Source: Heterodontus francisci (lineage: Eukaryota). From it: a stretch of DNA of 64,000 nt. Made by a program: the position numbers and the translations under genes. Every line of letters starts with the position of its first letter. The stretch's first letter is position 1. Below, piece after piece: positions 5,055-51,728 of the stretch. The stretch lies in NCBI RefSeq assembly GCF_036365525.1, contig NC_090401.1, forward strand, positions 31,393,036 to 31,457,035, given 5' to 3'. The notes beneath the pieces are model-generated. The model did not search any database, was not told the origin of the DNA, and worked only from the letters and a program-made list of their open reading frames with translations.

Positions 5055-7282
5055 TGGTGAATGGCTATTCTTCGGATTGGAGGGAAATATAGAGTGGCAT
5101 TCCCCAAGGTAAAGTACGAGCACCACTGCTGTTTTTGGTATGCATTAATGGCTTGGACTTGAGGGTACAGGGTACAATTCCAAAATTGGTATATGACATA
5201 AAACTTGGAAGTCTAGTAAACAATGAGGAGGACAGTAATAGACTACTTCAAGAGAACATAGACAGGCTGGTGGAATGGGCAGACACATGGCAGATGAAAT
5301 TCAATGCAGAAAAATGTGAGATGATATATTTTGCTAGGAAGAATGAGGAGAGGCAATACATACTAAATGGCACAATTTTAAAGGTGTGCAACAACAGAGA
5401 AACCTGAAGGTGTTTGTGTACAAATCTTTGAAGGTGGCAGGGCAGGTTAACAAACCAGTTAATAAAGTATATGGAATCCTGGACTTTATAAGGAGAGGCA
5501 TAGAGTTTTTTTTTATTCATTCATGGGATGTGGGCGTCACTGGCTAGGCCAGCATTTATTGCCCATCCCTAATTGCCCTTGAGAAGGTGGTGGTGAGCTG
5601 CCTTCTTGAACCGCTGCAGTCCATTTGGGGTAGGTATACCCACAGTGCTGTTAGGAAGGGAGTTCCAGGATTTTCACCCAGCGACAGTGAAGGAATGGTG
5701 ATATCGTTCCAAGTCAGGATGGTATGTGACTTGGAGGGGAACTTGCAGGTGTGATGATACCCCCATTTGCTGCCCTTGTCCTTCTAGTTGGTAGAGGTCG
5801 CGGGTTTGGAAGGTGCTGTCTAAGGAGCCTTGGTGCATTGCTGCAGTGTATCTTGTAGATGGTACACACTGCTGCCACTGTCCGTCGCTGGTGGAGGGAG
5901 TGAATGTTTGTAGATGGGGTGCCAATCAAGCGGGCTGCTTTGTCCTGGATGGTGTCAAGCTTCTTGAGTGTTGTTGGAGCTGCACCCATCCAGGCAAGTG
6001 GAGAGTATTCCATCACACTCCTGACTTGTGCCTTGTGGACAGGCTTTGGGGAGTCAGGAGGTGAGTTACTCGCCTCAGGATTCGTAGCCTCTGACCTGCT
6101 CTTGTAGCTGTGGTATTTATATGGCTACTCCAGTTCACTTTCTGGTCAATGATAGCCCCTAGGATGTTGATAGGGGGGGATTCAGCGATGGTAATGCCAT
6201 TGAATGTCAAGGGGAGATGTTTAGGTTCTCTCTTGTTGGAGATGGTCATTGCCTGGCACTTGTGTGGTGTGACTGTTACTTGCCACTTATCAGCCCAAGC
6301 CTGGATATTGTCCAGGTCTTGCTGCATTTCTACACCGACTGCTTCAGTATCTGAGGAGTCACGAATGGTGCTGAACATTGTGCAATCATCAGCGAACATC
6401 CCCACTTCTGATCTTGTGATTGAAGGTAGGTCATTGATGAAGCAACTGAAGATGGTTGGGTCTAGGACACTACCCTGAGGAACTCCGACATCCGATGCTC
6501 AGATGATTGACCTCCAATAACCACAACCATCTTCCTTTGCGCTAGGTATGACTCCAGCCAGCGGATGGTTTTCCCCCCCGATTCCCATTGACCTCAGTTT
6601 TGCTCGGGCTCCTTGATGCCATACCTTGATGTCAAGGGCAATCACTCTCACCTCACCTCTTGAGTTGGCATAGAGTCCAGGAAGTTATGCTAAACCGATA
6701 AAAAGTTTTCCATTTTCCAGCCCCAGCTGGAATTTGGTGTCCAATTCTAGGAGCCACATTTTAGGAAGAATGTGAAGTCTTCGGAGAGGGGACAGAAGAG
6801 ACTTATTGGGATGGTGTTAGGGATGAGGGACTTCAGTTATGTGAATGGGCTGGAAAAGCAGGGATTGTTCATCTTAGAGCAGAGAAGTTTAAGAGGCGAT
6901 TTGATCAAGGTGTTTAAAATCATGAAGCATTTAGATGAGGTAAATAAAGCAAAACTTTCCAATGGCTGAAGGGTTGATAATGAGAAGACACAGATGTAAG
7001 ATGATTGACAAAAGAACCAGAGACGATATGAGGAAAAACTATTTTACACGACGAGTGGTTAGGATTTGGAATGCACTGCCTGATAGGGTGGTGATATAGA
7101 TTGATAGGAGCTTTCAAAAGGGAACTGGATAAATACTTGAAGAAGAAAAAATTTCAGAGATATGGGGAAAGAGTGGGGGAGTGCAACTATAGTAGATTGT
7201 TCTTCAAAAGAGCCGACACAGACTTGATAAACTGAATGGCCTTCTCTCGTGCTACACTGCTCTATGATTCCATAATTCTATG
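5055..7282 (+). mobile_element. CR1-like LINE (family A) RT-3' fragment, split by a family-B LINE
   Basis: ORFs EWADTWQMKFNAEKCE and GLFILEQRSLRGDLIKVFKIMK; 3' tail ending ctatgattccataattctatga; halves join across TSD ggcatagagt. Confidence 0.9.
5507..6666 (-). mobile_element. LINE family B (CR1/L2 group), 5'-truncated, with 10-bp TSD
   Basis: ORFs GMFADDCTMF, QAWADKWQV, MEYSPLAW; 3' end cccatgaatgaataaaaaaaaa; TSD ggcatagagt at 5497-5506 and 6667-6676. Confidence 0.93.
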
Positions 7283-7925: not shown

Positions 7926-9121
7926 TCAACAACAACTTGCATTTATGTGGCAGCTTTATCATAGTAAAATATCGCAGGTCACTTCACAAGGGAGTAATCA
8001 GACAATAATTGACACCAAGCCAAAGAAAGAGACAGGAGGAAAGATTAATTGTATTTGACAAAATTGTATTAATGTTTGTCAAAATTGTAGATTTTAAGCT
8101 GAGCCTTAAAGGAGGAGAGAGAGGTGGACAGGTGAAGAGGACTGGGGAGGAAATTCCAAAGTTTACAGCCCAGACCACAAAAGGCACAGCCACCAATGGT
8201 GGAACAAAGGAAGTGGTGTTGTCAAGAGGCCAGAGTTGGAGCAACGTAGAGATCTTGGAGGATTGTGGAGATGCAGGAGGTTCCAGAGATAGGGTAGGGT
8301 AGGGCATGGAGTGTCTGGAACTCAAGGATGACACTTTTAAAGTCAAGGTATTGGTGGATCTGGAGCCAATGGGCGGCACAGTGGTGCAGTGGTTAGCACC
8401 GCAGCCTCACAGCTCCAGCGACCCGGGTTCAATTCTGGGTACTGCCTGTGTGGAGTTTACAAGTTCTCCCTGTGTCTGCGTGGGTTTTCTCCGGGTGCTC
8501 CGGTTTCCTCCCACAAGCCAAAAGACTTGCAGGTTGGTAGGTAAATTGGCCATTATAAATTGCCCCTAGTATAGGTAGGTGGTAGGGAAATATAGGGACA
8601 GGTGGGGATGTGGTAGGAATATGGGATTAGTGTAGGATTAGTATAAATGGGTGGTTGATGGTTGGCACAGACTCGGTGGGCCGAAGGGTCTGTTTCAGTG
8701 CTGTATCTCTAAACATAAACTAAACTAAACAATGTAGATCAGTGAGCACAGATTGGTGAACAGGACTTAGTGGGAGTTAGGATGTGGGCAATAGAGTTTT
8801 GGATGAGCTCCAAGTTTATGAAGGGTGCAAGGTGGGAGGCTGACCAGGAGTGCATTGAAATAGTTGAATCTAGAGGTAACAAAGATAATGGGATGAGGGT
8901 TTTAGCAGCAGATGAGCTGAGGTAGGAGCATAAACAGGCAATGTTACAGAGGTGGAAGTACATGTCTTGTTGATGGAAAGGATATGTGGTCAGAAGTTCA
9001 GCTCAGGATCAAATAGGAAGCCAAGAATGTGAATGGTGTAGTCCAACCTCAGACAGCAGCCAGGGAGAGGGATGGATTTGGTGGCTCGGGAACGGAGTTT
9101 GTGGCTTGGACCGAAAAGCAT
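7926..9121 (-). mobile_element. L2-type LINE 3' part, decayed; interrupted by a V-SINE; continues at ~11692-11925
   Basis: Minus-strand tail ataaatgcaagttgttgttg; remnants of L2 ORF2 motifs (LSSSAAKTLI, LELIQNSIAHILT). Confidence 0.75.
8371..8730 (+). mobile_element. tRNA-derived V-SINE (HE1-like), copy 1
   Basis: A box gtggtgcagtggttagc, B box ggttcaattc, V-domain gtggagttt...ccgggtgctccggtttcctcccac, CR1-type tail gggccgaagggtctgtttcagtgctgtatctc, (taaac)n end. Confidence 0.93.
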
Positions 9122-9139: not shown

Positions 9140-11038
9140 CGAGGCACTGGATACTGCAAAGGATATGGGCCTTGACAATATTCCAGCAATGGTACTGAAG
9201 ACTTGTGCTCCAAAACTAGCCGCCTCCCGAGTAAAGCTGTTCCAGTACAGCAACAACACTAGCATCTACCCGGCAATATGGAAATTGCCCAGGTATGTCC
9301 TGTACACAAAAAGGAGGACAAATCCAACCCGGCCAATTACCATCCCATCAGCATACTCCCGATCATCAGCAAAGTGATGGAAGGGGTTGTCAACAGTGCT
9401 ATCAAGCGGCACTTGCTTACCAATAACCTGCTCACTGACGCTCAGTTTGGGTTCCGCCAGGGCCACTCAGCTCCTGAACTCATTACAAACATGGACAAAA
9501 GAGCTGAACTCCAGAGGTGAGGTGAGAGTGACTGCCCTTAGCATCAAGGCAGCATTTGACTGAGTATGGCATCAAGAAACCTTAGCAAAACTGGAGTCAA
9601 TGAGAATCGGGGGAAAACTCTCTGCTGGTTGGAGTCATACCTAGCGCAAAGGAAGTTGGTTATGGTTGTTGGAGGTCAATCATCTCAGTCCCAGGACGTG
9701 ACTGCAGTAGTTCCTCAGGGTAGTGTCCGAGGTCCAACCATCTTCAGCTGCTTCATCAATGACCCTTCCTCTATCATAAGGTCAGAAGTGGGGATGTTTA
9801 CTGATGATTGTACAATGTTCAGCACCATTCGCGACTCCTCAGATACTGAAGCAGCCCATGTCTATATGCAACAAGACCTGGGCAATATCCAGGCTTGGGC
9901 TGATAAATGGCAAGTAACATTCGGGCCACACAAGTGCCAGGCAAGACCATCTCCAACAAGAGATAATCTAACCATCTTCCCTTGACATTCAATGGCATTA
10001 CCATTGCTGAATCCCCCATTATCATCATCCTGGGGGTCACCATTGACCAGAAACTGAACTGTTGTTGCCACAAAAATACTGTGGCTACAAAAGCAGATCA
10101 GAGGCTCGGGAATTCTGCAGCGAGTAACTTACCTCCTGTCTCCTCAATGCCTGTCCACCATCTACAAAGGCACAAGTCAGGAATGTGATGGAATACTCTC
10201 CATTTGCCTGGATGGCTGCAGCTCCAACATCATTCAAGAGGCTCAACACCATCCAGAACAAAGCAGTCCGCTTGATGGACACCCCATCCACCACCTTCAA
10301 CATTCACTCCCTCCACCACAGACGCACAGTTGCAGCAGTGTGTACCATCTACAAGATGCACTGCAGCAGTCACAAAGGCTCTTTGGACAGCACCTTCCAA
10401 ATCCGTGACCTCTATCACCTAGAAGGACAAGGGCAGCAGATGCATGGGAACACCACCACTTGCAAGTTCCCCTCCAAGCCACATGCCATCCTGACTGGGA
10501 ACTATATCGCCGTTACGTCACTGTCGCTGGGTCAAAATCCTGGCAGCACAGTGGTGCAGTGGTTAGCACCGCAGCCTCACAGCTCCAGCAACCCGGGTTC
10601 GATTCTGGGTGCTGCCTGTGCGGAGTTTGCAAGTTCTCCCTGTGACCGTGTGGGTTTTCGCCGGGTGCTCCGGTTTCCTCCCACAGCCAAAGACTTGCAG
10701 GTTGATAGGTAAATTGGCCATTGTAAAATTGCCCCTAGTATAGGTAGGTGGTAGGGGAATTGATGGAAGGTGGGGATGTGGTAGTAATATGGGATTAATG
10801 GAGGATTAGTATAAATGGGTGGTTGATGCTCGGCACAGACTCGGTGGGCCAAGGGCCTGTTTCAGTGCTGTATCTCTAAATAAAAATAAATAAACTTTCT
10901 TCCTAACATCACTGTTAGTGTACCTCTCTCCCAAGGACTGCAGCAACTCAAGAACCACCACGATCTTCTCAAGGGCAATTAGGGATGGGCAGTGAATGCT
11001 GGCCTAGCCCCAACACCCACATCCCCCGAATGAATAAA
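9140..11038 (+). mobile_element. LINE family B RT-3' portion, decayed; interrupted by a V-SINE at 10542-10893
   Basis: ORFs NPANYHPISILPIISKVME, QFGFRQGHS, VPQGSVRGPTIF, MFTDDCTMF; 3' end gaatgaataaa. Confidence 0.92.
10542..10893 (+). mobile_element. V-SINE copy 2
   Basis: Near-identical to copy 1; inserted at caaaatcct|gg in the family-B LINE 3' region. Confidence 0.93.
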
Positions 11039-12199: not shown

Positions 12200-15135
12200 A
12201 CTTCATTTAAAAAGAATACCTTTGGGAACAAATATGGGGTATTCTATAGGCCTCCAAATAGAGAGTGAGAGATAGAGGAGCAAATCTGCAGGGAAGTCAC
12301 AGAGAAGTGCAAGAACTATAGAATGGTGATATTGGAGGACATTAATTACCCAAATATCGATGGGGATAATTTTAGAGTAAAAGGAAAGGAGGAGGAGGAA
12401 TTTCTGAAATATGTTCAGGAGAACTTCCTTGATCAGTATGTTTTTTGTCCAACTAGAGAGGAGGCATTGCTGGATCAGGTGCTGGGAAATGAAGTGGGCC
12501 AAGTGGACCAAGTATCTGTGAGGGAGCACTTGGGTAAGAGTAATCATCGTATCATAAGGTTTAATCTCCCAATGCAGAAAAGCAAGCAACAATATAATGT
12601 AGAATGGCGAGATTGGAAGAGAGTTAATTTCAATGCGATGGGAAGGGATCTAACCAGCATAAAATGGAACCAAAAACTGACAGGAAAAACTGTAACAGAA
12701 CAATGGGTTATCTTTAAGAAAGAGATGCTTCAGGAAGAGGCTAGATACACTCCAACAAGGGTGAAACATAGGGGAACATAAAACAGGGCTCCTTGGAAAA
12801 GACGGAGATAGAGATTATGATGAAATAAAAAAGAGGGTGTATGATGCATGTCAGGTGAATTCTTCAAGTGAGAACCAGGCCATATACAATAAGTTGAGAT
12901 GGGAGGTGAAGAGGAAAATAAGACTGGCAAAGAGAGAATATGAGAATAGAATGGCAGTGGACAAAAAAGGGAACCCAAAAATCTTCTACCGGCATGTAAA
13001 TAGTAAACGGGTGGTAAGAGGTGAAGTGGGGTCTATTAGGGACAAAGAGGGTCATATATCCTTAGAAATACAGGGCAAGGCTAGAATACTTAATGAATAC
13101 TTTCTATCGGTGTTTACTAAGGAAGAGGAATCTGACAAAATATTGGTGGAAGCAGATAGAGTAGAAGCATTGGATAGGGTAAGAATTGAGAGTGGGGAGG
13201 TACTAAAAAGGCTGGCTATGCTTAGGGTAGATAAGAAACCTGGTCCAGATGGCGTGCATCCCAGGTTGCTAAAGGAAGCGGGGGTGGAGATAATGGACTG
13301 GCTTGCCATAATCTTCCAATCTTCCCTAGATATGGGAGAGGTGCCAGAGGATTGGCGAGTGGCAAATGTGACACCCTTATTCAAGAAAGGGTGTAAGAAC
13401 AGTGCTAGCAACTACAGGCTAGTTAGTTTAACATTTGTGATGGGTAAGGTTTTTGAAACAATAATCAGGGAATAAATCAACAAGGATTTGTAGACATTTG
13501 AGTTAATTAAGGATAGCCAGTATGGATTTGTAAAAGGCAGATCATGCTTGACTAATCTAACTGAATTTTTTGATGAAGTAACAGAGAAGGTTGATGAAGG
13601 GAATGTGTGGATGCAGTTGAGATGGATTTTAAGAAAGCATTTGATAAAATATCACTTAAAAGGTTGGTTAACAAAATTGAGGCTCATGGAATAGGAGGGC
13701 GGCACAGCGGCGCAGCCTCACAGCTCCAGGGACCCAGGTTCGATTCTGGGTACTGCCTGTGCGGAGTTTGCAAGTTCTCCCTGTGTCTGCGTGAATTTCC
13801 GCCGGGTGCTCCGGTTTCCTCCCACCTCCAAAAGACTTGCAGGTTGATAGGTAAATTGGCCATTGTAAATTGCCCCTAGTGTCGGTAGGTGGTAGGAGAA
13901 TGGTGGGGATGTGGTAGAAAATATGGGGTAGTGTAGGGTTAGTATAAATGGATGGTTGTTGCTCAGCACAGACTCAGTGGGCCGAAGGGCCTGTTTCAGT
14001 GTTGTATCTCTAAATAAAAATAAAAAAATCACTGTCCAATTGGATAAGTAATTGGCTTAAGAACAGAAAACAGCAAGTTGTGTTAAATGGTTGTATTTCA
14101 GACAGGAGGATGGTAGATAGTGATGTTCCCCAAGGGTAAGTGCTGGGACCACTGCCTTTTTTGCTATATATAAACAATCTGGATCTTGGAACACGAGTAG
14201 AATTTCAAAATTTGCTGGTGATACCAAACTTGGAGGAATGGCAAACAGTGAGGATGACATGAACTGCCTGCAACAGGACATATATAGACTAGGAGAATGA
14301 GCAGACAAGTGGCAGGTGGAATTTAATACAGACAAGTATGAGATGATGCATTTTGGCAGAAGGGATAGGGTGAGGCAATATAGAATTAATGGCACAGTTC
14401 TAAAGAGTGTTCAAGAACAGAGGGACCTGGGTGTGTATATGCATTGATCTTTCAAGGTTGCAGGACATATTGAGAGAGTGGTGAGAAAAGCATATGTGAT
14501 CTTGGGCTTCATAAACAGATGCACAGAGTACAAAAGCAGGGAGGTTGTGCTGAACTTTTATAAAGCTCTGGTTAGGCCCCAACTAGAGTATTTTTTTTTG
14601 CGTCCAGTTCTGGTCATAAGACTTTAGGAAGGATGTAAGGGTACTTGAGAGGGTGCAGAGAAGATTTACCAGAATGGTTCCAAGGATTGGGGGATTTTAG
14701 TTACAAGGTTAGGTTGGAAAAGCTAGGGTTTTTTTCCTGAGGCAAAGGAGATTGGAAGGATATTTGATGGAGTTGTACAAGATTATGAGAGGCTTAGAGA
14801 AGTTAACCAATGAAAAACTGTTCCCATTAACTGATGGCCCAAGGACTAGAGGACACAGGATGAAGGTTTTGGACAAGAGATGCGGGGGGAATGTGAGGAA
14901 GAACTTTTTTACACAACGAGTACTGACCTGGAACTCACTGCCCACGAGGGTGGTGGTACTGGACACAATCAATGATTTCAAAAGGAATTTGGATGGGCAC
15001 TTGAAGGAAATAAACTTGCAGGATTACAGGGAACGAGCGAGGGAGTAGGACTGACAGGATTGCTCCCGAGAGTCAGCATGGACTCGGTGGGGCCGAATGG
15101 CCTACTTCTGTGCTGTAAATGACTCTATGAATCTA
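12200..15135 (+). mobile_element. CR1-like LINE (family A), most of ORF2 (endonuclease remnant plus RT) to 3' tail, many stops; split by V-SINE copy 3
   Basis: YRPPN-like motif, EDINYPNID, KKPGPDGVHPRLLKE, EDWRVANVTPLFKKG, DFKKAFDK, 3' tail ggccgaatggcctacttctgtgctgtaaatgactctatga. Confidence 0.93.
13697..14028 (+). mobile_element. V-SINE copy 3 (with an internal deletion in the head)
   Basis: Same body and tail as copy 1 but lacks tggttagcaccgcag. Confidence 0.93.
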
Positions 15136-15279: not shown

Positions 15280-15405
15280 CAAAAGCAAATTGCAAAAGCT
15301 GGATATGTGAAATAAAAACAGAATGTGCTGGAAATACTATCCTGATGAAAGGTCACCCACTTGAAATGTTAACTCTGTTTTTTGTCTCCTCAAATGCTGC
15401 CTGAC
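15280..15405. mobile_element. Penelope-like pseudo-LTR remnant in inverted arrangement, with a hammerhead-like core at 15342-15377 (+)
   Basis: aaataaaaacagaatgtgctggaaatact (minus-strand tail) followed by ctgatgaaaggtcacccacttgaaatgttaactctg; homologous to 40619-40792 and 47935-48035. Confidence 0.65.
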
Positions 15406-16135
15406 ATTTATGTTGCCCATCCCTAATTGCCCTTGAGAAGGTGATGCTGAGCCACCTTCTTGAACTGCTGCAGTCTTTGTGGTGTAGGTACACCCACAGT
15501 ACTGTTAGGAAGCGAGTTCCCGGATTTTGACCCAGCAACAGTGAAGGAATGGTGATTATAGTTCCAAGTCATGATTGTGTGTGACTCGAAGGGGAACTTG
15601 TAGGTGGTGGTGTTCCCATGAGGCTGCTGTCCTTGTCCTTCTAGGTGGTAGAGGTTGCGGGTTTGGAAGGTGTTATCATAGGAGGCTTGGCGAGTTGCTG
15701 CAATGCATCCTGCAGCTGGTACACATTGCTGCCGCTGTGCACCAGCGGTGGAGGAAGTGAGTGTTTAAGGTGGTGGATGGGGTGCCGATCAAGCAGGATG
15801 CTTTGTGCTGGATGGTGTGGAGCTTCTTGATTATTGGAGCTCCACTCATCCAGGCAAGTGGACAGTATTCTAACACACTGCTGACTTGTGCCTTGTAGAT
15901 GGTGGACAGATTTTGGTGAGTAAGGAGGTGAGTTACTTGCCGCAGCCTCTGACCTACTCTTGCAGCCACAGTATTTATATGGCTGGTCCAGTTAAGTTTC
16001 TGGTCAATTGTAACCCCTAGGATGTTGATGGTGGGGAATTCAGAGATGACAATGTCATTGAACATCAAGGGGAGATGGTTAGATTCTTTCTTGTTGCAGA
16101 TAGCCATTGCTTGGCTCTTGAGTGGCACGAATGTT
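15405..16135 (-). mobile_element. LINE family B 3' fragment
   Basis: ORF 15676..16155 (NILGVTIDQKLNWTSHIN, LEYCPLAW); 3' UTR matches 5520-5700. Confidence 0.9.
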
Positions 16136-16279
16136 ATTGAGAATTTCCAGCACATCCTGTGTTCATTTCAGGTACTTATCCTTAGTTTATTGGCTTGCAG
16201 TGACTCAGAAAGCCACCTGGCATTTAGAGATTTGTCATATGAAACCCTCTGGATAGCATTTAGTTCTGTATCTTTGGGT

Positions 16280-17847: not shown

Positions 17848-19045
17848 ACTGGACATCACTGGCAAGGTCTGTATTTATTGCCCATCCCTAATCGCCCTTG
17901 AGAAAGTGATGGTGAGCCGCCTTCTTGAACCACTGCAATCCATGTGATGTTGGTTCTCCCACAGTGCTGTTAGGGAGAGAGTTCCAATATCTTGATCTAG
18001 TGACAATGAAGGAGCTGCGAAATATTTCCAGCTCAGGGCAATGTATAACTTGGAGGGGAACTTGCATGTGTTGATGTCCCATGCATTTGCCGCCTTTGCC
18101 CTTCTTGGTTGTAGAGGTCACGGCTTTGGGAGGTGCTGTCAAAGAAGCCTTACCAAGTTGCTGCAGTGCATCTTGTAGATGGCGCACACTGTAGCCACAT
18201 AGTGGTAGAGACAGTGAATGCTAAATGTGGTGGATAGGGTGCAGGCTGCTTTGTCCTAGATGGTGTCAAGCTTCTTGAGTATTGTTGGAGCTGCACTCAT
18301 CTAGGCAGGTACAATGTATTCTATCACACTCCTGACTTGTGCCTTGTAGCTGATAGAAAGGCTTGAAGGCATCAGGAGGTGAGTCATTCATTGCAGAATA
18401 CCCAGTCACTGGCCTGCACTTGTAGCCATAGTATTTATATGACTGGTCTTGTTCAGTTTCCAGACAATGGTGACCATCAAGGGTGTTAATGGTGGGGATT
18501 CAACAATAGTACTTAAACTGAATGTCATGGGGAAGTGGTTAGATTCTCTCATGCTGGAGATGGTCATTGTCTGGCACTTGTGTGGCATAAGTATTGCTTG
18601 CCACTTCTCAGCCCAAGCCTGAATGTTGTCCAGGTCTTGCTGCAAATGGGCACGGATTGCTTCATTATCTGAGGAATTGTGAATCGAATTGAACACTGTG
18701 CAATCATCAGCGACCATCCCCACTTCTGACCTTATGGTGGAAGGAAGGTCATTGATGAAGCAGCTGGAGAAGGTTGGGCCTAGGACACTACCCTGAAGAA
18801 CTCCTACAATGATGTCCTGGGACTGAGATGATTGGCCTCCAACAACCGCAACCATCTTCCTTTGTGCCAAGTATAACTTCAACCAGTGGAGAGTTTTCAC
18901 CCTGATTTCCATTAACTTCAGCTTTGCAAGGGCTCCTTGGTGCCACACTTAGTCAAATGCTGCCTTAATGTCAAGGACAGTCACACTCACCTCACCTCTG
19001 GAATTCAGCTGTTTTGTCCATGTTTAGACCAAGGTTGTAATGAGT
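17848..19045 (-). mobile_element. LINE family B RT-3' fragment
   Basis: ORF 18406..18948 (GVLQGSVLGPT, GMVADDCTVF, QAWAEKWQ). Confidence 0.92.
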
Positions 19046-38540: not shown

Positions 38541-38661
38541 GCCCCAGAGAGATTACAACCAGATCGGGGAGAGTTGCCAAACCTCTGATGAGACTGAATC
38601 TGTAAAGTCAGAGACCTGGGGAGAATGAGAGAGTTGTAGAGAAGTCATAAATGTATATATA

Positions 38662-39004
38662 GTTTTAGTTTAGAGATACAGCACTGAAACAGGCCCTTCG
38701 GCCCACCGAGTCTGTGCCGACCATCAACCACCCGTTTACACTATTCCTATACTAATTCCATATTCCTACCACATCCCCACCTGTCCCTATATTATCCCTA
38801 CCACCTACCTATACTAGGGGCAATTTATAATGGCCAATTTACCTATCAACCTGCAAGTCTTTGGCATGTGGGAGGAAACCGGAGCACCCGGAGGAAACCC
38901 ACGCAGACACAGGGAGAACTTGCAAACTCCACACAGGCAGTACCCGGAATTGAACCCGGGTCGCTGGAGCTATGAGGCTGCGGTGCTAACCACTGCGCCG
39001 CCCC
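38662..39004 (-). mobile_element. V-SINE copy 4, inserted in the Gypsy 3' untranslated region
   Basis: Reverse complement of the copy 1 sequence; lies ~30 nt upstream of the PPT. Confidence 0.93.
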
Positions 39005-39310: not shown

Positions 39311-40618
39311 AAAAACTATGCTAGCTTCTTCTTTAAATGGCTCAGAAAAGGCATGTACCACCAGGCTGAACTCAGCCCATTCATCGTTTTCACTTGCTCT
39401 CTCACTATAGGTAAGAATAGACAGAATTAAAATTATAGTTCTCTAGAGAAGTCTATATAATTGAATCCCACTGTGAACAACACAGACATCTTTCTGGAAC
39501 TTAATAACTATGCAACTGTTCACTGGGAATGGAAAGCTTCTATGCTGAAGTTTTTCCTCAACTAGACAAGCAACAATTTCCTTTAGCTCTGTGTTTTGAC
39601 TTTCACATGGAGGGAAACACAGATGGTTTGAGATCATAAATCCCACTCCAGTATACCGGAAGAGGGAAGGTTTGGTTACCTCACAATTATCCCTAGGGAC
39701 CCTACCTTTAGGGCACATTTCCTCAAAGCTCTGTTGGAAATTTTTTTTAGGTGTACATGGTTTAAAAGTAGAACTAACCTCTGCTGTTACATCCTCCACT
39801 GTAGAACAGCTGGCAACACTTGCCTTCCAGATTTATTCATGGAGGATGGTCAATTGGCAAAAGTTCCAGAGAGCTGATGGTGCACAAGGGACCCCAACAT
39901 GTGCCAAAACCTTCAAGAGATGAGGGGAGAAAATCGGAAATTCAAACTAAAAAACCTTGTAAAAAACAAGTCAATATGTACAGTGTTGCTGAAAACAGAA
40001 TGCTGCTGCTCGAAAACACAAACAATAAATACTCCAATGATAGTTTTGTTTCAGAAGCCTTTGGCCTAAATAGGAACATAGAAGCAGGAGTAGGCCATTC
40101 AGCCCATCGAGCCTGCTCTGCCATTCAATACAATCATGGTTGATCATCCACTTCAATGCCTTTTTCCCACACTATCACCATATCCCTTTATGTCATTGAT
40201 ATTTAGAAATTTGTCAATCACTACTTTAAACATACTCAATGACTGAGCTTCCACAGTCCTCTGGGGCAGAGAATTCCAAAGATTCACAACCCTCTGAGTA
40301 AAGAAATTGCTCCTCATCTCTGACCTAAGCTTCCCCCTTATTTTGAAATTGTGTCCCCTGGTACGAGACTCCCCAACCAGAGGAAACATCTTAGCTGCAT
40401 CTACCCTGTCTATCCCTTTAAGTATTTTGTAGGTTTCAATGAGATCACCTCTCATTCTTCGAAACTCTGGAGAATACAGACCCAGTTTCCCCAATCTCTC
40501 TTCATAGGACAATCCTGCCATTCCAGGAACAAGTCTGGTGAACCTTTGTTGCACTCCCTCTATGGCAATAATATCCTTCCTAAGGTAAGGGGACCAAAAC
40601 TGCGCACAGTATTCCAGG

Positions 40619-40792
40619 ATCTGTGGAAAGAGAAGCAGAGTTAACGTTTCAGGTCAGTGACCGAAGAAGGGTCACTGACCCGAAACATTAACTCTGCTTC
40701 CCTTTCCACAGATGCTGCCAGACCTGCTGAGTGGTTCCAGCATTTCTTGTTTTTATTTCAGATTTCCAGCATCTGCAGTATTTTGCTTTTAT
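40619..40792. mobile_element. 174-bp Penelope-derived insertion with inverted 5' end (hairpin) and hammerhead-like motif; 14-bp TSD
   Basis: TSD cacagtattccagg at 40605-40618 and 40793-40806; arms ~40619-40663 and ~40669-40713 are inverted repeats; homologous to the end of the GIY-YIG-bearing piece at 47935-48560. Confidence 0.85.
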
Positions 40793-41377: not shown

Positions 41378-41724
41378 GGGCGGCACAGTGGCCCAGTGGT
41401 TAGCACCGCAGCCTCACAGCTCCAGCGACCCGGGTTCAAATCTGGGTATTGCCTGTGTGGAATTTGCAAGTTCTCCCTGTGTCTGCGTGGGTTTCCTCCG
41501 GGTGCTCCGGTTTCCTCCTACATGCCAAAGACTTGCAGGTTGATAGGTAAATTGGCCATTAGCAATTGCCCCTAGTATAGGTAGGTGGTAGGGAAATATA
41601 GGGACAGGTGGGAATGTGGTAGGAATATGGAATTAGTGTAGGATTAGTATAAATGGGTGGTTGATGATCGGCACAGACTCGGTGGGCCGAAGGGCCTGTT
41701 TCAGTGCTGTATCTCTAAAACTAA
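41378..41724 (+). mobile_element. V-SINE copy 5
   Basis: Near-identical to copy 1; short flanking duplication atgt. Confidence 0.93.
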
Positions 41725-44700
41725 ATGTGCTTTAATTTTGCTAACCAACCTCCTGTGGGGGACTTTACTAAAAGCCTTCTGAACATCCAAGTATACTACA
41801 TCCACCAACTCCCCTTTATCAATTCTGTTAGTAACATCCTCAAAAAAACTCCCAACAGGTTCGTCAAACATGATTTCCCATTCATAAATCCATGTTGACT
41901 ATGCCCAATCAGATCATTATTATCCAAGTGTCCATTTATCACATCCTTGAGAATAGATTCTAGCATATTTCCTACTATTGATGTAAGGCTAACAGGACTG
42001 TAGTTCCCTGTTTTCTCTCTCCCATCCTTCTTAAATAGTGGGGTGACATTTGCTATCTTCCAATCTGCAGGAACCGTTCCAGAATCTATAGAATTTTGGA
42101 AGATGATCATCGGTGTTTCCATTATTTCCATAGCTACCTCTTTCAACACTCTGGGATATAGACTATCAGGTCCCAGGGATTTATCAACCTTCAGCCCCAT
42201 TAATTTCTCCAATACAACCTTCTTACTAATACTAATTTCCTTCAATTCCTCATTCTCCCTACTCCCTTGGATTGCTCATTCTGGGAGATTTCTTGTATCT
42301 TCCTTGATGAAGACAGACACAAAGTAATCATTTAGCTTCTCTGCCATTTCTCTATTCTCCATTATAAATTCTCCTGACTCTGCCTGTAATGGACCCACAT
42401 TTGCCTTAGCCAAATGTTTCCTTTTTACGTATCTATAGAAGCTTTTACAGTCCATTTTTATGTTTTTTGCTAGTTTACATTCATATTCTATTCTCCCTTT
42501 CTTTATCAGTTTCTTGGTCCTCCTTTGCTGTATTCTAAAATCCTCCCAATCCTCAGGTTTACTATTATTTCTGCCAACTTTATAGGCCTTTTCTTTTAAT
42601 CTTATACAATCCTTATCTTTCTTGTTAGCCACGGTTGACTGACTTTTCTTTTTGTGTTTTTATGCCTTGAAGGAATGTATAATTGCTGTAAACTATATAA
42701 TAATTCTTTAAAGATTGCCTATGTACTGTCATACCTTTTAATGTATTTTCTGAATCCACCTCAGCCAATTTGTCCCTCATACCTTCATAATTTCCTTTGT
42801 TCAAATTTAACACCCTGGCTTCAGATTGAACCACCTCACTTTCAAACATCATGTAAAATTCTATCATATTATGGTCACTCATCCCTAAATGTTATTTAAC
42901 AAGATAATTAATTAGCCCTTTCTCATCGCATATTACTAGCTCTAATATAGCATTTTCTCTAGTTGGTTCCTCAACATACTGCTATAGAAAACCATCCCTA
43001 ACACACTCCAGAAACTTGTCCTCCACAGCATTAGTGCTCATTCGGTTTATCCAGTCTATATGCAGATTGAAGTCACCCATAATTACTGTATTACCCATGC
43101 TACATGCTTCTCTAATCTCCTGATCAGTACCATCAGTACCACTACTGTTTGGTGGCATATAAACAACTCTTACCAATGTTTGCGACCTCTTGCTGTTTCT
43201 TAGCTCCACCCAAACAGATTCCACTTTTTGTTCTTCTGATCTGAGATCCTCCCTTACTAGTCTACTGATCCCAGCCCTTATTATCAGTGCAACACCACCT
43301 CCTTTTCCTTTTTGCCTGTCCTTCATAAATGTCGAATATCTTCGAATATTCAGTTCCCAGTCTTGGTCACCATATAGCCACGTTTCAGTAATGGCAATTA
43401 GATCATACCCATTACCTCTATTACCTTTAAATTATCAACCTTGTTGTGTATGCTGCATGCATTCAGGTAGAGTGCCCTTAAGCTTGTCTTCTTGACTTTA
43501 TTCTGCATTCTAAGCAGTGTTGATGCTCGTCTTTGTTTCGCCTGCCTTCTGTCACTTGCTACTTTTCTACCTCCTGTTACCAGTTTTATTTCCTTCCAAT
43601 TTGAGCTACCCTTCACGTTCCCATCTATCTGACAAGCTAGTTTAAACCCTTTCCAACAGCACTAGCAAATCTCCCTGCGAGGATATTAGTTCCTTAAAGC
43701 ATACAACTCCTTTAGCTGTTCATCCAAATAGGTCACGTTAAAAACTCGCCATGTATTTACTGCCAATCTAGATGCTGTCCTTGTATAGTTCGAAAACTGT
43801 CTGATAAACCAATTTTAGCGTCTCCACGAGAGCACACATTCTTTGCCTGCATATAAATGTACAGAAAACAAGGGAGAACAAACTATGACACACTTAAAGT
43901 GTATTTGTCCACTTTTAAATAGTTTTTTTCTGCTTTTGAAGCACTCCCAAAGATAAGGGCAACAGTCCATGTACTGAGTGAGAGATTCAGCCATCATTTG
44001 CTGCAATGAATAAATCTTTTGTGCCAATGAGACGTGTCAGTTAATCATAGGAGTACAAATAGAGACAGCAGCTCTGCAACTTCTCCCTCCCCCACACTCT
44101 GACTGCCTGCAACCTGTGTCGGCATCACACGAATGATCGAATGTTTTGTTCAGTGCGAAGATTTAACATGGTAAATTCTCAAAGAGTAAACAGCTTCCAA
44201 CTGCTTTTCTTTCGTCGTTGAAAGTAATTTACTACCTTTAAACAAAAGCGGGAGCATGCACCTTTAAGAGCACACATGATTAATTATTTTATCCAATTCT
44301 GTTTCAATACATTCAATGTTCCAAAGTGCTATCTCTGTTGTAACATTATTATATCATGTTGCATTTTATTCCATGTTCTTTTCAAATGTTCCACACAGTA
44401 TAAAACCTTCTTGAAAATCCCATAATAATACTCCACTGCTAACATGTACTCAAGTTAAATAAAGTTGTACGTATAGATTATTATACTTCTGGACTGGCTT
44501 TGGTGGCAAAGGATCAAGTGCCATCAAGAAGCTTGTAACCTGACGTTCCCAAAGTATAGCACTCTACAGATAATCCATAGCATATTAACTCCTTTACTAA
44601 TTCAGGCCAGCACCACTACCATATTTAAATCAGTAATTTAGGTTCTGATAATCGGCTATAATGTTGATGTGCCGTTCCCCTTTTCAGGTGCTTACAATCC

Positions 44701-46039: not shown

Positions 46040-46300
46040 TTACGTCCTTAGGATGTCTCAAAATGCTTCACAATCAATGAACACATTTTTAAGTTCAACT
46101 ACTGTTGTTATGTAGGCAAACATAGTAGTCAATTTTTGGCCAGGGCTCCATAAACAGCAAATGAACAAATGACCAGATAATCAGATTTTTTTTGTTGTTG
46201 CTGTTAGTCAGAACACTGGGAGAACTTCCTCTTCTCTTTTGGGTAGTGCCATGGAATCTGTTATGTCGATCTGAATTGGCAAACGAGGCATAGGCTTAAT
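46040..46300 (-). mobile_element. DeuSINE-type SINE remnant
   Basis: Reverse complement contains ccatggcactac...gaagttctcccagtgttc...ctgattatctggtcatt...ttgctgtttatggagc, matching the Deu domain. Confidence 0.7.
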
Positions 46301-47095
46301 TTTTTTTTTCATGGCATGTGGGCGTCCCTAATTGCCCTCGAGAAGGTGGTGGTGAGCTGCCTTCTAGAACTGCTGCAGTCCATGTGGGGTAGGTATGCCC
46401 ACAGTGCTGTTGGGAAGGGAGTTCCAGGATTTTGACCCAGCGACAGTGAAGGAATGGCGATATAGTTCCAAGTCAGGATGGTGTGTGGCTTGGAGTGGAA
46501 CTTGCAGGTGGTGGTGTTCCCATGCATTTGCTGCCCTTGTCCTTCTAGGTGGTACGAGGTTGTGGGTTTGGAAGATGCTGTGTAAGGAACCTTGGTGCTT
46601 TGCTGCAGCGCATCTTGTAGATGGTACACACTGCTACCACTATGCGTCTGTGGTGGAGGAAGTGAATGTTTGTAGATGGGATGCCAATCAAGCGGGCTAC
46701 TTTGTCCTGGATGATGTTGAGCTTCTTGAGTGTTGTTGGAGATGCACCCATCCAGGCAAGTGCAGAGTATTCCATCACACTCCTGACTTGTGCCTTGTAG
46801 ATGGTGAACAGGCTTTGAGGAGTCAGGAAGTGAGTTACTCGTGGCAGGATTCCTAGCCTCTGACCTGCTCTTGCATTTATATCACTACTCCAGTTCAGTT
46901 TCTGGTCAACGGTAACCCCCAGGATGTTGATAGTGGGGGATTCAGTGACCATAATGCCATTGAATGTCAAGGTAAGATGGTTAGATTCTCTCTTGTTGGA
47001 GATGATCATTGCCTGGCACTTGTGTGGCACGAATGTTTCTTTCCACTCATCAGCCCAAGCCTGCATATTGTCCAGGTCTTCTTGTATTTCTATGC
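46301..47095 (-). mobile_element. LINE family B 3' fragment
   Basis: ORF 46545..47066 (QAWADEWK...IYKAQVRSVMEYSALAW); A-tail seen as a T run at ~46300. Confidence 0.92.
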
Positions 47096-48775
47096 AGACA
47101 TCGAAGATGAAAATTGTTGAGTTTTCTTTCTTGATAGCTGTAAATCATCCATGCTTCACAGCCGAAGAGCCAGGCGCTAAGAACACTGGCCTCAAAAACC
47201 AACACCTTGGTCCTGAGAGTCAGCTGTTGTTTATCCAGGCACTTTCCGAGAGTCGGCCAAAGGTGGTAGCTGCTTTCCCTGTGTGTGTCGAATTTGCTAA
47301 CACTTACGAACATACGGGCATATGAATTAGGAGCAGAAGTAGGCCATTCGGCCCCTCTAGCTTGCTCCGCCTCCACCACCTTCTGAGGCAGAGAGTTCCA
47401 AAGTCGCATTGGACTTACATTGGAGTTTTTCTAAGTGTGATCGAGGACAGAGGGATGACACCCTGTCCCATAACCACAGTTTTCTTGATGCTCATAGTAA
47501 GGTAGAACAGGTTACAGGCATGAGAGAGACAATCTGAGTCTTTGTAGTTGAGTTTCCATGTGGGCTGCTCGTGCAGCATCACCAGTGTAGAGGAATTCCC
47601 TGATCAAGACGTGCTGTATTTCCTCACTTTCAACCTGGACAGAACTAAAATGCAGGGAAACTCCTTTCATATCTGCAGGGAAGGCAAAGGTGAGGAGGAT
47701 GGAGAAGAAAATTTGAGGCTAGGATACAGCCCTGTTTCACTCCATTCTTCACACTTTCACTGTCAGAAATGGTGCCGTCAAACTGTACAGCACTGTGCAT
47801 GTTGTCATGAAAGGAATGGATGAGATCAAGGAGCTTTGGTGGACAAATTTTCTCCATAATCTTGTAGAGTCCTGCTCTCTTGACAGTATAGAATTCTTTT
47901 GTGAGATCTATGAAAACAAGGTAGAGAGATACGTAATAAAAACAAAAAATGCTGGAAATACTCAACTGGCCCGGCAGCATCCATGGAGAGAGAAGCAGAG
48001 TCAACGTTTCAGGTCAGTGACTCTTCATCAGAAATGGCAAATGTTAGAAATGTAATAGGTTTTAAGCAAATAAAGTGGGGGTGGTGCAAGAGATAACAAA
48101 AGGGAAGGTGTTGATAGGACAGAGGGTCATAGAGAATAACTGACCAGAAGGTCATGGAGCAAAGGTAAATGGTATGTTAATGGTGCGCTGAAAGACAAAG
48201 CGTTAGTGCAGAGAGGGTGTTAATTGACAGAAAAATGAACAGCCCTGGCCCAAAGCGCAAACATGAAAAAAAACAGTGGGTAGGCACATGGTAAAAAAAT
48301 GAATGAAACAAACTAACATAAAACAAATAAAAAAGAAAAAATAGCTAAAAATAAAATTGAAAAGGGGGGCCCGTCATACTCTGTTATTATTGAACTCAAT
48401 GTTCAGTCCGGCAGTCTGTAGAATGCCCAATCAGTAAATGAGATGCTGTTCCTCGAGCTTGCTTGATGTTCACTGGAGCACTGCAGCAAGCCCAGGACAG
48501 TATGTGGGCATGAGAGCAGGTGAATGTGTTGAAATGGCAAGCAACCGGAAGCTCGGGATTAGGTTTTCATAGAGAGGTATGTCCTGTTCCCAACACTTCT
48601 CTTGTAGTTGGTGCATGGAAAAGATCATGTCTACTGTAGATTTGCCAGCACAAAAGCTGCACTGTGCTTCTGGATACACTCAGTCTGCAAGTTGATGGAG
48701 TCTTTTCAGCGTGACCCTAACAAAGTCTTTCCCAGTGACACTGAGGAGTGAGTTGCCCTTGTAGTTCTCGCAGTG
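47096..48775 (-). mobile_element. Old RTE-clade LINE RT region, fragmented by a CR1 tail (~47305-47410) and a Penelope-like insertion (47935-48560)
   Basis: YPEAQCSFCAGKSTVDMIFSMHQLQEKCWEQ; LYLVFIDLTK; CPPKLLDLIHSFHDNM; GVKQGCILA; LTLRTKVLVF...LNNFHLRCL. Confidence 0.88.
47935..48560 (-). mobile_element. Penelope-like element 3' part: GIY-YIG C-terminal remnant plus pseudo-LTR with hammerhead-like motif
   Basis: Minus-strand translation VLGLLQCSSEH/KLEEQHLIY*LGILQTAGLNIEF; CTGATGA-stem-GAAACGTT at 48031-48003; decayed TSD tagagagatacgt / tagagaggtatgt (47922-47934, 48570-48582). Confidence 0.82.
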
Positions 48776-50222: not shown

Positions 50223-50696
50223 TTGGTGGAGGGGAAAAGGACACAGCAATCACTGCTTCCTTAGTCGCACCAGATGTGTCAATGTTTCCAGTGTCATTTC
50301 TCATGGGAGACATTACAGCAGCAATTGATTGGCCCTCTACAGCTGCTTCCACTAGAAAGCACGGCACAGAATCAAAGGATCATCACAGTGCAGTTGCCTT
50401 CTTTCCTTTTTTGGTTAGCAGGTGGGAAGAATAATTCTTATATAATTATACAAGGCTCCCAAAGGCAATAACATGCTTATTCTGGGCTCACAAAACTCTG
50501 TTACAGTGCAGTCTCCAGAATCCAACTGATACTCTTCACAGAGTTGTGTTTTGTTGATGGTGCTTCAATTTCATCCTTAACACACTAAGGCCTGCTGGAA
50601 AAGTAAGTCCCAGCATAATAAATCACCTGACACTGTATTTGAAAGGAACATTAAGTGCACTTAAATTGAGTTATTGCCAATATGATCAGATGTGTA

Positions 50697-50791
50697 ACAA
50701 AAACAAGAAATGCTGGATTCACTCAGCAGGTCTGGCAGCATCTGTGGAAAGAGAAGCAGAGTTAACGTTTCGGGTCAGTGACCCTTCTTCG
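50697..50791 (-). mobile_element. 95-bp Penelope-derived insertion beginning at the hammerhead-like core; 13-bp TSD
   Basis: TSD gatcagatgtgta at 50684-50696 and 50792-50804; minus strand reads CGAAGAAGGGTCACTGACCCGAAACGTTAACTCTGCTTCTC. Confidence 0.87.
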
Positions 50792-51728
50792 GATCAGATG
50801 TGTACTCATTACAAATCTCTTACCACAATCAAAGTAATTGATCTTGTGATACAACACTTTCCATGAGGTTACCTTAGAGCTCAATATTGTCAAAACTCAT
50901 TGTTAGTTAAACCAGCAACTGTGTTGTAGACTAAAGCACATTTATAAATAAGATGAAACCTGCAAGCATGGGCCACGATAGGAGACATACCAGGTTCAAA
51001 CACTGCAATTAGAAGTTGGATGTGATATAAAAGATCACTTTGTATCTTAATCTGGATTTTGTTCTGGACATCCCTGAATAATCTTCCAAAATATGCATGT
51101 TTTCTTTGTGTGTTGGAAGCGCACAGCAGATAGATCTGTTCTAACTCTGATGAAGGGCAACACCCAAACCATTAACCTTTCTCTTTTAGACAGTGCTTTG
51201 TATTTCTCACTTGGATTTCAGATTTCCAGTTTTCCTTTTATTTGTTTTTATCTCTTAGCCTCTTGTCATGTAAATGCAGTCTACTCCCTCAACTTAAATC
51301 TGAGTTTATTTAAAATGAGAAATTGAATAAACTAGCACTATGGATGAGTCATCCTATAGCTCAAAAAATTGTGTTGTAAATTGCTGGAAGTGCAAGTTGA
51401 TAATGGTGCAGCGAGGCCAACAGGGCATCTGGGACCTTGAACAACTGGACCAACAGTCTATCTCCTTAACTAATGAAATATTTAAGGATAGAGAACAAAA
51501 CAGAGCAAACTACAGAGAAGAAAATAGGATGAATTAGGTACAGAAAGAGAGGGAAGAATGACTGGAATGAAAGAGAAAAAGACAAAGGAAAAATAAGCAA
51601 AATAAGATTTGAAATACATCCAAGAACAATTTACTACCTGCAGGATAGTTTCAATTGTTCCATTTCTGGGTTGGAAAGGTTGAGTGGCATTGCAGGAACT
51701 AAATCTCATAATTTTAAAGGACTCTTAG

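What the first reader, a model, noticed from the sequence alone, without database searches (positions are those of the whole stretch)
50684..50804. 95-bp Penelope-derived insertion made almost entirely of a hammerhead-like motif plus tail, with a perfect 13-bp TSD
Seen: the minus strand reads (C)CGAAGA-AGGGTC-ACT-GACCC-GAAA-CGTT-AACTCTG..., i.e. a C-N-GANGA core, a stem II (GGGTC/GACCC), GAAA and the palindrome AACGTT in place of stem III. Established: Penelope-like elements carry minimal type I hammerhead ribozymes with a palindromic stem III, thought to work as dimers. Inference: this is a recently mobilised tiny non-autonomous unit. It starts at the same CGAAGAAGGG position as the forward arm of the 40619 copy, so the 5' end may be defined rather than randomly truncated.
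Basis: partly seen in the sequence, partly recalled or inferred. Interest (0 to 1): 0.72.

Follow-up and report, generated by a model that had tools for sequence, protein, structure and literature searches.

The report
Penelope stub starting at likely promoter
This 95-letter insertion is a young stub of a very abundant Penelope-type jumping gene, not a separate mini-element, and it lacks part of the self-cutting RNA motif; many such stubs begin at the same few letters, which likely mark where the jumping gene's RNA starts.

Summary
In detail: a 95-bp minus-strand insert (50697-50791) lies between exact 13-bp duplications. It is one of tens of thousands of copies of a Penelope-like element whose long copies carry an RT + GIY-YIG frame. 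5' ends are not random: 30 of 100 sampled arms begin in a 5-nt window (+1..+5; under 1 expected). None of 57 non-inverted copies begins at the predicted hammerhead cut site (+34). +1 is the first base of hammerhead helix I and sits in an initiator-like site with TATA-like (-29), CACCC (-51) and CCAAT (-83) motifs upstream. Some full-length copies also start there, and +2 junctions carry excess GG (14 of 49; 3.3 expected). Best reading (about 0.65): reverse transcription starts internally at +100 or +135 and runs off the 5' end of uncut, likely capped RNA, leaving promoterless dead-end stubs. This copy lacks the 5' strand of helix I, so it is predicted not to be a working ribozyme. Stubs share variants with long copies, so they are not a separate non-autonomous family. 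The promoter and cap are inferred; no raw RNA reads were available. Earlier agents of this scan reached the same reading at other loci of this genome.

The parts
50684..50696 (.). left copy of 13-bp target-site duplication
   Evidence: identical to 50792-50804; 31 of 40 exact TSDs >=9 bp called in the family are 11-14 bp
50792..50804 (.). right copy of TSD; its first two bases double as element positions +5/+4 (2-nt microhomology)
50697..50791 (-). 95-bp Penelope stub, element positions +6..+100 (+1 = A of the initiator-like site in long copies)
   Evidence: long copies lead into an RT + GIY-YIG frame
50786..50792 (-). hammerhead core remnant C3-C4-G5-A6-A7-G8-A9 (U4C variant; C3 shared with TSD)
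50772..50784 (-). stem II, 5 bp with 3-nt loop (+13..+25); also a frequent fold-back junction in inverted copies
50764..50771 (-). GAAA plus palindromic stem III and U17; predicted cut between 50764 and 50763 (+33/+34)
   Evidence: sequence read against the minimal-hammerhead architecture of PMC4209133
50760..50763 (-). orphan 3' strand of helix I; its partner (+1..+4) is absent from this copy
50697..50700 (-). 3' end at the short-tail site (~+100), one of the family's two 3' ends (the other is +135)
   Evidence: 39 of 100 arms end at +95..+104, 55 at +135 or beyond, 6 between
40619..40792 (+). second young copy: head-to-head insertion (inverted arm 40619-40661, forward arm +6..+135) between 14-bp TSDs
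47935..48093 (-). older copy (83% identical over the motif region) that keeps upstream pLTR sequence including the TATA-like motif
15281..15405 (+). older diverged head-to-head copy whose forward arm also begins at about +4/+5

Best explanation
The insert is a stub of an abundant Penelope-like retrotransposon, and it likely arose when reverse transcription began about 100 nt inside the element's uncut RNA and ran off that RNA's 5' end. Shown here: the family, two 3' ends (~+100 and +135), the pile-up of 5' ends at +1..+5, 11-14-bp TSDs, and promoter-like motifs at canonical spacing. Inferred steps: (1) a Pol II promoter in the pseudo-LTR (CCAAT -83, CACCC -51, TATA-like -29, initiator) starts a capped RNA at +1/+2, so the hammerhead occupies its first 37 nt. 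(2) The GIY-YIG domain nicks the target, and RT starts internally at ~+100 or +135, as shown in vitro for an anole PLE. (3) On a read-through RNA, initiation in the downstream repeat gives long 5'-truncated copies. Initiation in the 5' repeat gives a 95-135-nt run-off cDNA, like retroviral strong-stop DNA. (4) The cDNA end gains C residues or slips back, is trimmed by 0-5 nt and joined by microhomology, leaving a promoterless stub. This copy cannot form helix I and is predicted to be inert as a ribozyme.
For: 30 of 100 arms anchored at their 3' part end at +1..+5 and 0 at +6..+12, against 0.35-0.9 expected (p<1e-34). At event level it is 27 of 85 insertions, and 18 of 57 non-inverted singles. 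Genome-wide exact counts: 12,136 (intact +1, non-element base at -13), 7,043 (start +2), 4,228 (start +3) and 37,987 (element base at -13). These scale roughly to 37% of about 66,000 copies starting at +1..+3. Of 30 loci holding the N-terminal region, 10 reach the 5' motif: three independent junctions lie at -4, -1 and +3, one at -18, and four run on as tandems. Motif positions are; TATAA columns are conserved in 39-43 of 43 upstream sequences, which are mostly young copies. GG directly before +2 occurs in 14 of 49 non-inverted copies (3.3 expected, p=3e-6) and 8 of 21 inverted ones (1.4 expected); in L1 an extra G marks capped full-length junctions (PMC11702581). Six junctions duplicate the first bases in AG register. 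There is no hairpin upstream of +1 (-2.2 kcal/mol for 40 nt). Internal initiation and use of uncut RNA are shown in vitro for PAc (PMC11167929).
Against: No direct RNA 5'-end data: only assembled contigs were available, and they cannot show starts. The G excess before +1 is not significant (10 of 22, 6.2 expected, p=0.07). The GG could be templated by slip-back to the GGG at +13..+15 instead of a cap. The same bases also fit a 3' splice site (branch-like motif at -12, YAG at -1..+2). The one tested Penelope promoter, in D. virilis, is internal and TATA-less, with an intron ending at helix I. The 100-arm sample is the first 9.7 Mb of one contig and includes paired arms and one duplicated pair.
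Confidence: 0.65

Rival explanations
1. The 5' boundary is a 3' splice site (CAG before +3), as in D. virilis Penelope where the intron ends at helix I. Stubs would be copies of spliced RNA or of splicing intermediates.
For: A branch-like YTRAY at -12 and YAG at -1..+2 are conserved; precedent in PMC4209133 and PMC2377424.
Against: No recurring upstream exon among 170 junction loci. Where a TSD was called, 0-9 extra nt separate it from the stub. More copies retain +1/+2, which would be intron bases, than start at +3. No GT..AG joint into +3 among the listed contig joints (7 joints were not shown, and contigs drop rare forms).
Confidence: 0.1
2. The ends are an RT stop or a DNA-repair preference on longer RNA: RT pauses or drops off on leaving the structured hammerhead region for the U-rich upstream sequence, or cDNA ends are resected back to this point.
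For: Ends are ragged over 5 nt. A second pile at +13..+15 (9 of 100) tracks the stem II palindrome, so structure does shape some junctions.
Against: There is no stable hairpin just upstream of +1, and drop-off is very low from -36 to -100 (0 of 100). This model does not explain the G excess confined to two positions or the coincidence with TATA/initiator spacing.
Confidence: 0.15
3. One reading: a separate ~95-135-nt non-autonomous, retrozyme-like unit that is itself transcribed, ribozyme-processed and re-mobilised.
For: About 24,000 short copies by rough estimate; 14 of 78 arms are identical to this one; PLE-derived retrozymes exist (bioRxiv 10.64898/2026.07.22.740005).
Against: Variant spectrum is the same in stubs and long copies. 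Stubs lack the upstream promoter-like motifs and are not in tandem arrays. 0 of 57 non-inverted copies begin at +33..+35. Only 655 genome-wide matches have intact +34..+58 with a non-T at +33, and most listed rows are mutated longer copies.
Confidence: 0.07

Closest known systems
Endonuclease-positive Penelope-like elements, probably Neptune type (Craig et al. 2021, PMC8557442; passages and section 10 read)
   Same: Single RT + C-terminal GIY-YIG frame, pseudo-LTR, frequent 5' truncation, head-to-head inverted copies, optional 30-40-bp tail at one end, cysteine cluster between RT and endonuclease.
   Different: In the passages read, short copies are attributed to 5' truncation. Here about a third share one 5' boundary at a promoter-like site.
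Poseidon_Ac (PAc) of green anole (Frangieh et al. 2024, PMC11167929; parts 1-2 of 4 read, supplements searched without hits)
   Same: Two internal RT start sites that define the tail; hammerhead just upstream; uncut RNA is the substrate.
   Different: In PAc the ORF starts inside stem II; here the ATG is at +173. The parts read do not map genomic 5' ends to a start site.
Minimal type I hammerheads of metazoan PLEs (Cervera and De la Pena 2014, PMC4209133; parts 1-2 of 4 read)
   Same: Intact family copies have a 4-bp helix I, an extra base before helix II, a G10.1-C11.1 pair and a palindromic helix III; most such motifs are dispersed single copies of truncated PLEs.
   Different: The young lineage has U4C and U17; this copy lacks the helix I 5' strand; no cleavage was tested.
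Non-LTR retrozymes (Li, Clavereau, Pollet 2026, bioRxiv 10.64898/2026.07.22.740005; part 1 of 5 and passages read)
   Same: PLE pLTR-derived, non-coding, carry a hammerhead.
   Different: They are defined by tandem units each with a complete hammerhead. This is a dispersed, TSD-flanked monomer with an incomplete motif.
D. virilis Penelope promoter (Schostak et al. 2008, PMC2377424; passages and section 15) and Adineta pLTRs (Arkhipova et al. 2013, PMC3846280; passages)
   Same: Promoter and start site lie in the pLTR; the rotifer pLTR has a putative TATA plus initiator.
   Different: The fly promoter is internal and TATA-less, with the hammerhead after an intron. Here the predicted start coincides with helix I.

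Membership tests
EN+ Penelope-like element (family of origin) | ORF with RT followed by GIY-YIG endonuclease | tested here: met
   603-aa open frame in L114: Pfam RVT_1 E=2e-6 and GIY-YIG E=1e-3, both just under the curated cut-offs; the frame is colinear with the insert's sequence in long copies
EN+ Penelope-like element (family of origin) | pseudo-LTR from partial tandem; inverted 5' copies; optional tail | tested here: met
   tandem copies L144, L156, L157, L168; 15 head-to-head pairs among 85 events, 13 of 15 with one short and one long tail
Neptune clade | Zn-finger-like cysteine motif between RT and endonuclease; placement in an RT tree | tested here: inconclusive
   a cysteine cluster precedes the GIY-YIG region in the translations, matching the description in PMC8557442; no tree was built
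Minimal type I hammerhead (this copy) | helix I closing the core | tested here: not met
   5' strand absent; target bases pair at 2 of 4 positions
Minimal type I hammerhead (intact family copies) | core C3-U4-G5-A6-N-G8-A9, GAAA, UH; helices I and II; palindromic helix III | tested here: inconclusive
   architecture present, but the commonest core has C4; U4C lowers activity in vitro yet suffices in a viroid (PMC3088659); no Rfam hammerhead hit
Minimal type I hammerhead (intact family copies) | covariation in helices I and II | tested here: inconclusive
   16 hand-picked copies: helix II 92.5% paired, but only 1 pair changes on both sides and 48 of 500 shuffles reach the score; several rows are truncated in helix I
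Minimal type I hammerhead (intact family copies) | self-cleavage as dimer or with protein | not testable with these tools
   needs a cleavage assay; the computed dimer minimum-energy fold of +1..+40 is not the hammerhead fold
Non-LTR retrozyme | tandem units each with a complete hammerhead | tested here: not met
   single TSD-flanked monomer with incomplete motif; sampled stubs are single or head-to-head
Independent non-autonomous element (SINE-like) | own fixed ends and own diagnostic variants | tested here: not met
   ragged 5' ends and two 3' ends; variants shared with long copies, p=0.70

The most novel reading that the evidence does not exclude
Penelope elements make a strong-stop-like cDNA: RT starts inside the 5' repeat and runs off a capped end whose first 37 nt are the hammerhead. 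That cDNA either integrates as a stub or jumps to another template position, which would be how partial tandems and the pseudo-LTR are regenerated. The stubs are then a genome-scale fossil record of the start site and of an intermediate that PLE models lack.
Probability: 0.35. Interest if true: 0.65.

Novelty: new member of a known kind. Interest (0 to 1): 0.4.

Why it matters
The insertion itself is ordinary. The family pattern bears on an open question: how PLEs regenerate their pseudo-LTR and what the hammerhead does (PMC2377424 states that no obvious regeneration mechanism is known). If stubs are run-off copies, they map the RNA start in vivo, show that integrated cDNA comes from uncut RNA, and give a sharp prediction (capped starts at +1/+2) testable with one 5'-end library. 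The same reading was already reached at other loci of this genome, so this locus adds a replicate analysis, not a new discovery.

Tried and rejected
Rfam: no hammerhead family in the window or on an intact copy; the mir-3202 hits at 40617-40715 are below the gathering score and reflect the inverted repeat. Hammerhead cleavage as the source of 5' ends was rejected. An apparent splice acceptor in L123 proved to lie in coding sequence. A possible 5'-UTR intron from about +75 to +171 gave no joint in eight contig runs; contigs drop rare forms, so this is not evidence of absence. Contig depth rises over +1..+135 in those runs, but depth of contigs cannot show starts or levels, so it was not used. 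A fold in which upstream bases break stem II appeared for -30..+45 but not for -60..+135, so no switch is claimed. The covariation test was inconclusive. The bacterial promoter scan was irrelevant. The right flank is single-copy, so no paralogous empty site could be inspected. Paper searches listed no paper on start-site-aligned PLE stubs or on this element; the library lacks most subscription journals and Repbase, and the bioRxiv supplements were not seen.

Full report
Observation. The 13-mers at 50684-50696 and 50792-50804 are identical and enclose a 95-bp insert on the minus strand. Chance is about 1e-5 allowing 400 placements. The window holds three relatives: a young head-to-head copy at 40619-40792 with a 14-bp TSD, and older copies near 47935-48093 and 15281-15405. 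The right flank is single-copy in the genome. The host is likely a shark; this is recalled from the repeat content and stated in earlier notes, not tested.

Family. A 48-nt internal word has 37,666 exact matches and a 29-nt 3' anchor 58,316 in the 6.0-Gb assembly; reversed-pattern controls gave 0. Long copies extend upstream through a 3' UTR into a frame with RT and GIY-YIG similarity (Pfam E=2e-6 and 1e-3, both just below the curated cut-offs). Copies holding the N-terminus show the same motif at their 5' end, an ATG at +173 and a unit of about 3.3 kb. A cysteine cluster before the endonuclease suggests the Neptune type; no tree was made. Numbering: +1 is the A of the initiator-like site in the real copy L114 (position 7000). 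The window insert is +6..+100, with 2 nt of microhomology to the TSD. Of 78 sampled arms that span it, 14 are identical over 95 nt, so it is young.

Hammerhead. In intact copies helix I is +1..+4 with +34..+37, the core is +5..+11, an extra A precedes the 5-bp helix II (+13..+25), and GAAA with the palindrome follows; the predicted cut is +33/+34. This matches the minimal PLE hammerhead of PMC4209133. The commonest young core has C at position 4. U4C lowers activity in vitro but is tolerated in a viroid (PMC3088659, passages). Rfam finds no hammerhead. Covariation across 16 hand-picked copies is inconclusive. The window copy lacks +1..+3, and the target bases pair at 2 of 4 helix I positions, so it is predicted to be inert.

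Are 5' ends defined? I mapped the first 100 matches of the 3' anchor (contig C1, first 9.7 Mb). Seven further arms from another list were dropped before counting. 5' ends fell as follows: 35 upstream of -100 (some cut by the locus edge), 0 at -100..-36, 5 at -35..-9, 8 at -8..-1, 30 at +1..+5, 0 at +6..+12, 9 at +13..+15, 4 at +16..+40 and 9 at +41..+67. Background drop-off predicts 0.35-0.9 in the 5-nt window (p<1e-34). Collapsed to events, 27 of 85 have an arm at +1..+5; among 57 non-inverted singles 18 do, and 0 start at +33..+35. Whole-genome counts agree: 12,136, 7,043 and 4,228 for the +1, +2 and +3 classes and 37,987 for copies with the element base at -13. A rough scaling gives 37% of about 66,000. 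The equivalent pattern at the cut site has 655 matches, and most of the 100 listed are mutated longer copies. 3' ends are bimodal: 39 at +95..+104, 55 at +135 or beyond, 6 between. This corresponds to the PLE tail, which PMC11167929 ties to two internal RT start sites.

What defines the end? Four lines point to the RNA's own 5' end. (1) Upstream of +1 lie CCAAT (-83), CACCC (-51), TATAA (-29) and an initiator match at -2; the canonical spacing of these motifs is recalled knowledge. (2) Of 30 loci holding the N-terminal region, 10 reach the 5' motif. Four run on as tandems; the others start at -18, -4, -1 and +3, the last being three loci with one shared junction. (3) Among 170 junction loci, GG stands directly before +2 in 14 of 49 non-inverted copies (3.3 expected) and 8 of 21 inverted ones (1.4 expected), with no G excess from the third base on in non-inverted copies. 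Before +1, G is 10 of 22 (6.2 expected), which is not significant (two duplicate loci dropped). An extra G marks capped full-length L1 junctions (PMC11702581, passage), but slip-back to the GGG at +13..+15 could give the same letters. Both require RT to have run out of template or paused there. (4) 15 of 170 junctions repeat a 6-mer of the first bases, against 14 of 520 control windows; six are exact duplications in AG register. The 40 nt upstream of +1 fold at only -2.2 kcal/mol. Against this: no raw RNA reads were available, the same bases fit a splice acceptor, and the tested fly promoter is internal and TATA-less.

Not a separate unit. The three variants at +78/+79 occur at similar frequencies in 30 stubs and 35 long copies (p=0.70). 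Stubs have ragged 5' ends, both tails and unrelated flanks. 31 of 40 called TSDs are 11-14 bp; these 40 come from 102 non-inverted loci, the rest having no exact TSD of 9 bp or more under my call. Each stub looks made afresh from the autonomous element's RNA.

Mechanism. Transcription from the pLTR gives RNA beginning with the hammerhead (inferred). RT starts at about +100 or +135 (shown in vitro for a relative, inferred here). In the 5' repeat it runs off after 95-135 nt and integrates as a stub; in the downstream repeat it yields long truncated copies. Both target ends can be extended, giving head-to-head pairs, 13 of 15 of which combine one short and one long tail (p=0.003); a one-sided tail is already described (PMC8557442). 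Jumps of the run-off cDNA to another template position are hinted at by L101/L211, where a +2 start follows ORF-internal sequence, and by one contig joint. That such jumps regenerate tandems is speculation.

Novelty. The element class, the minimal hammerhead, the tail and very short PLE insertions (median 128 bp in Chlamydomonas, ascribed to 5' truncation; PMC9977147, passage) are known. Searches listed no paper that aligns stub 5' ends with a start site, within a library that omits most subscription journals. My reading was noted before I saw that earlier agents had reached it at other loci of this genome; that is repetition, not independent support. Verdict: a new member of a known kind, with a testable mechanistic hint; interest 0.4.

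Noticed in passing
L146, L147, L158 (about 480-1100): A full-length copy starting at +3 sits behind an upstream pLTR, separated by a minisatellite spacer whose length differs between loci. The same junction occurs on two contigs, so the pLTR-spacer-element unit may have moved as a whole or been duplicated.
   Followed up: partly
L101/L211 (G000:C1 near 8645540): A stub starting at +2 is directly preceded by sequence from inside the element's own ORF (about -800), as expected from a template jump after run-off. A similar back-joint to +1 appears in one contig of run X8.
   Followed up: partly
15 head-to-head pairs among the first 100 arms on C1: 13 of 15 pairs combine one short-tail and one long-tail arm (p=0.003), suggesting that the two target ends use different RT start sites.
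   Followed up: partly
L225, L240, L252, L331, L340 and similar rows: The same or nearly the same inverted junction, with three G (or C) between palindromic arms, recurs at many unrelated loci.
   Followed up: partly
window 40617-40715: Head-to-head stubs form long hairpins that score against Rfam mir-3202 below its gathering threshold; such insertions could be mis-annotated as microRNA precursors.
   Followed up: no
window 5531-6472, 15385-16197, 17850-18790, 46290-47099; 8395-8724, 10565-10892, 13706-14025, 38660-38999, 41402-41730: Other dispersed repeat families fill much of the window; they were not classified.
   Followed up: no
L114 4255-5391, minus strand: A 379-aa open frame that looks like a host gene overlaps, on the opposite strand, the 5' part of the Penelope copy; neighbouring sequence holds 70-bp and 28-bp-type tandem arrays.
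   Followed up: no
L113 3676-6615, minus strand: A 980-aa open endonuclease-RT frame of LINE type lies next to a Penelope copy, suggesting a young LINE family.
   Followed up: no
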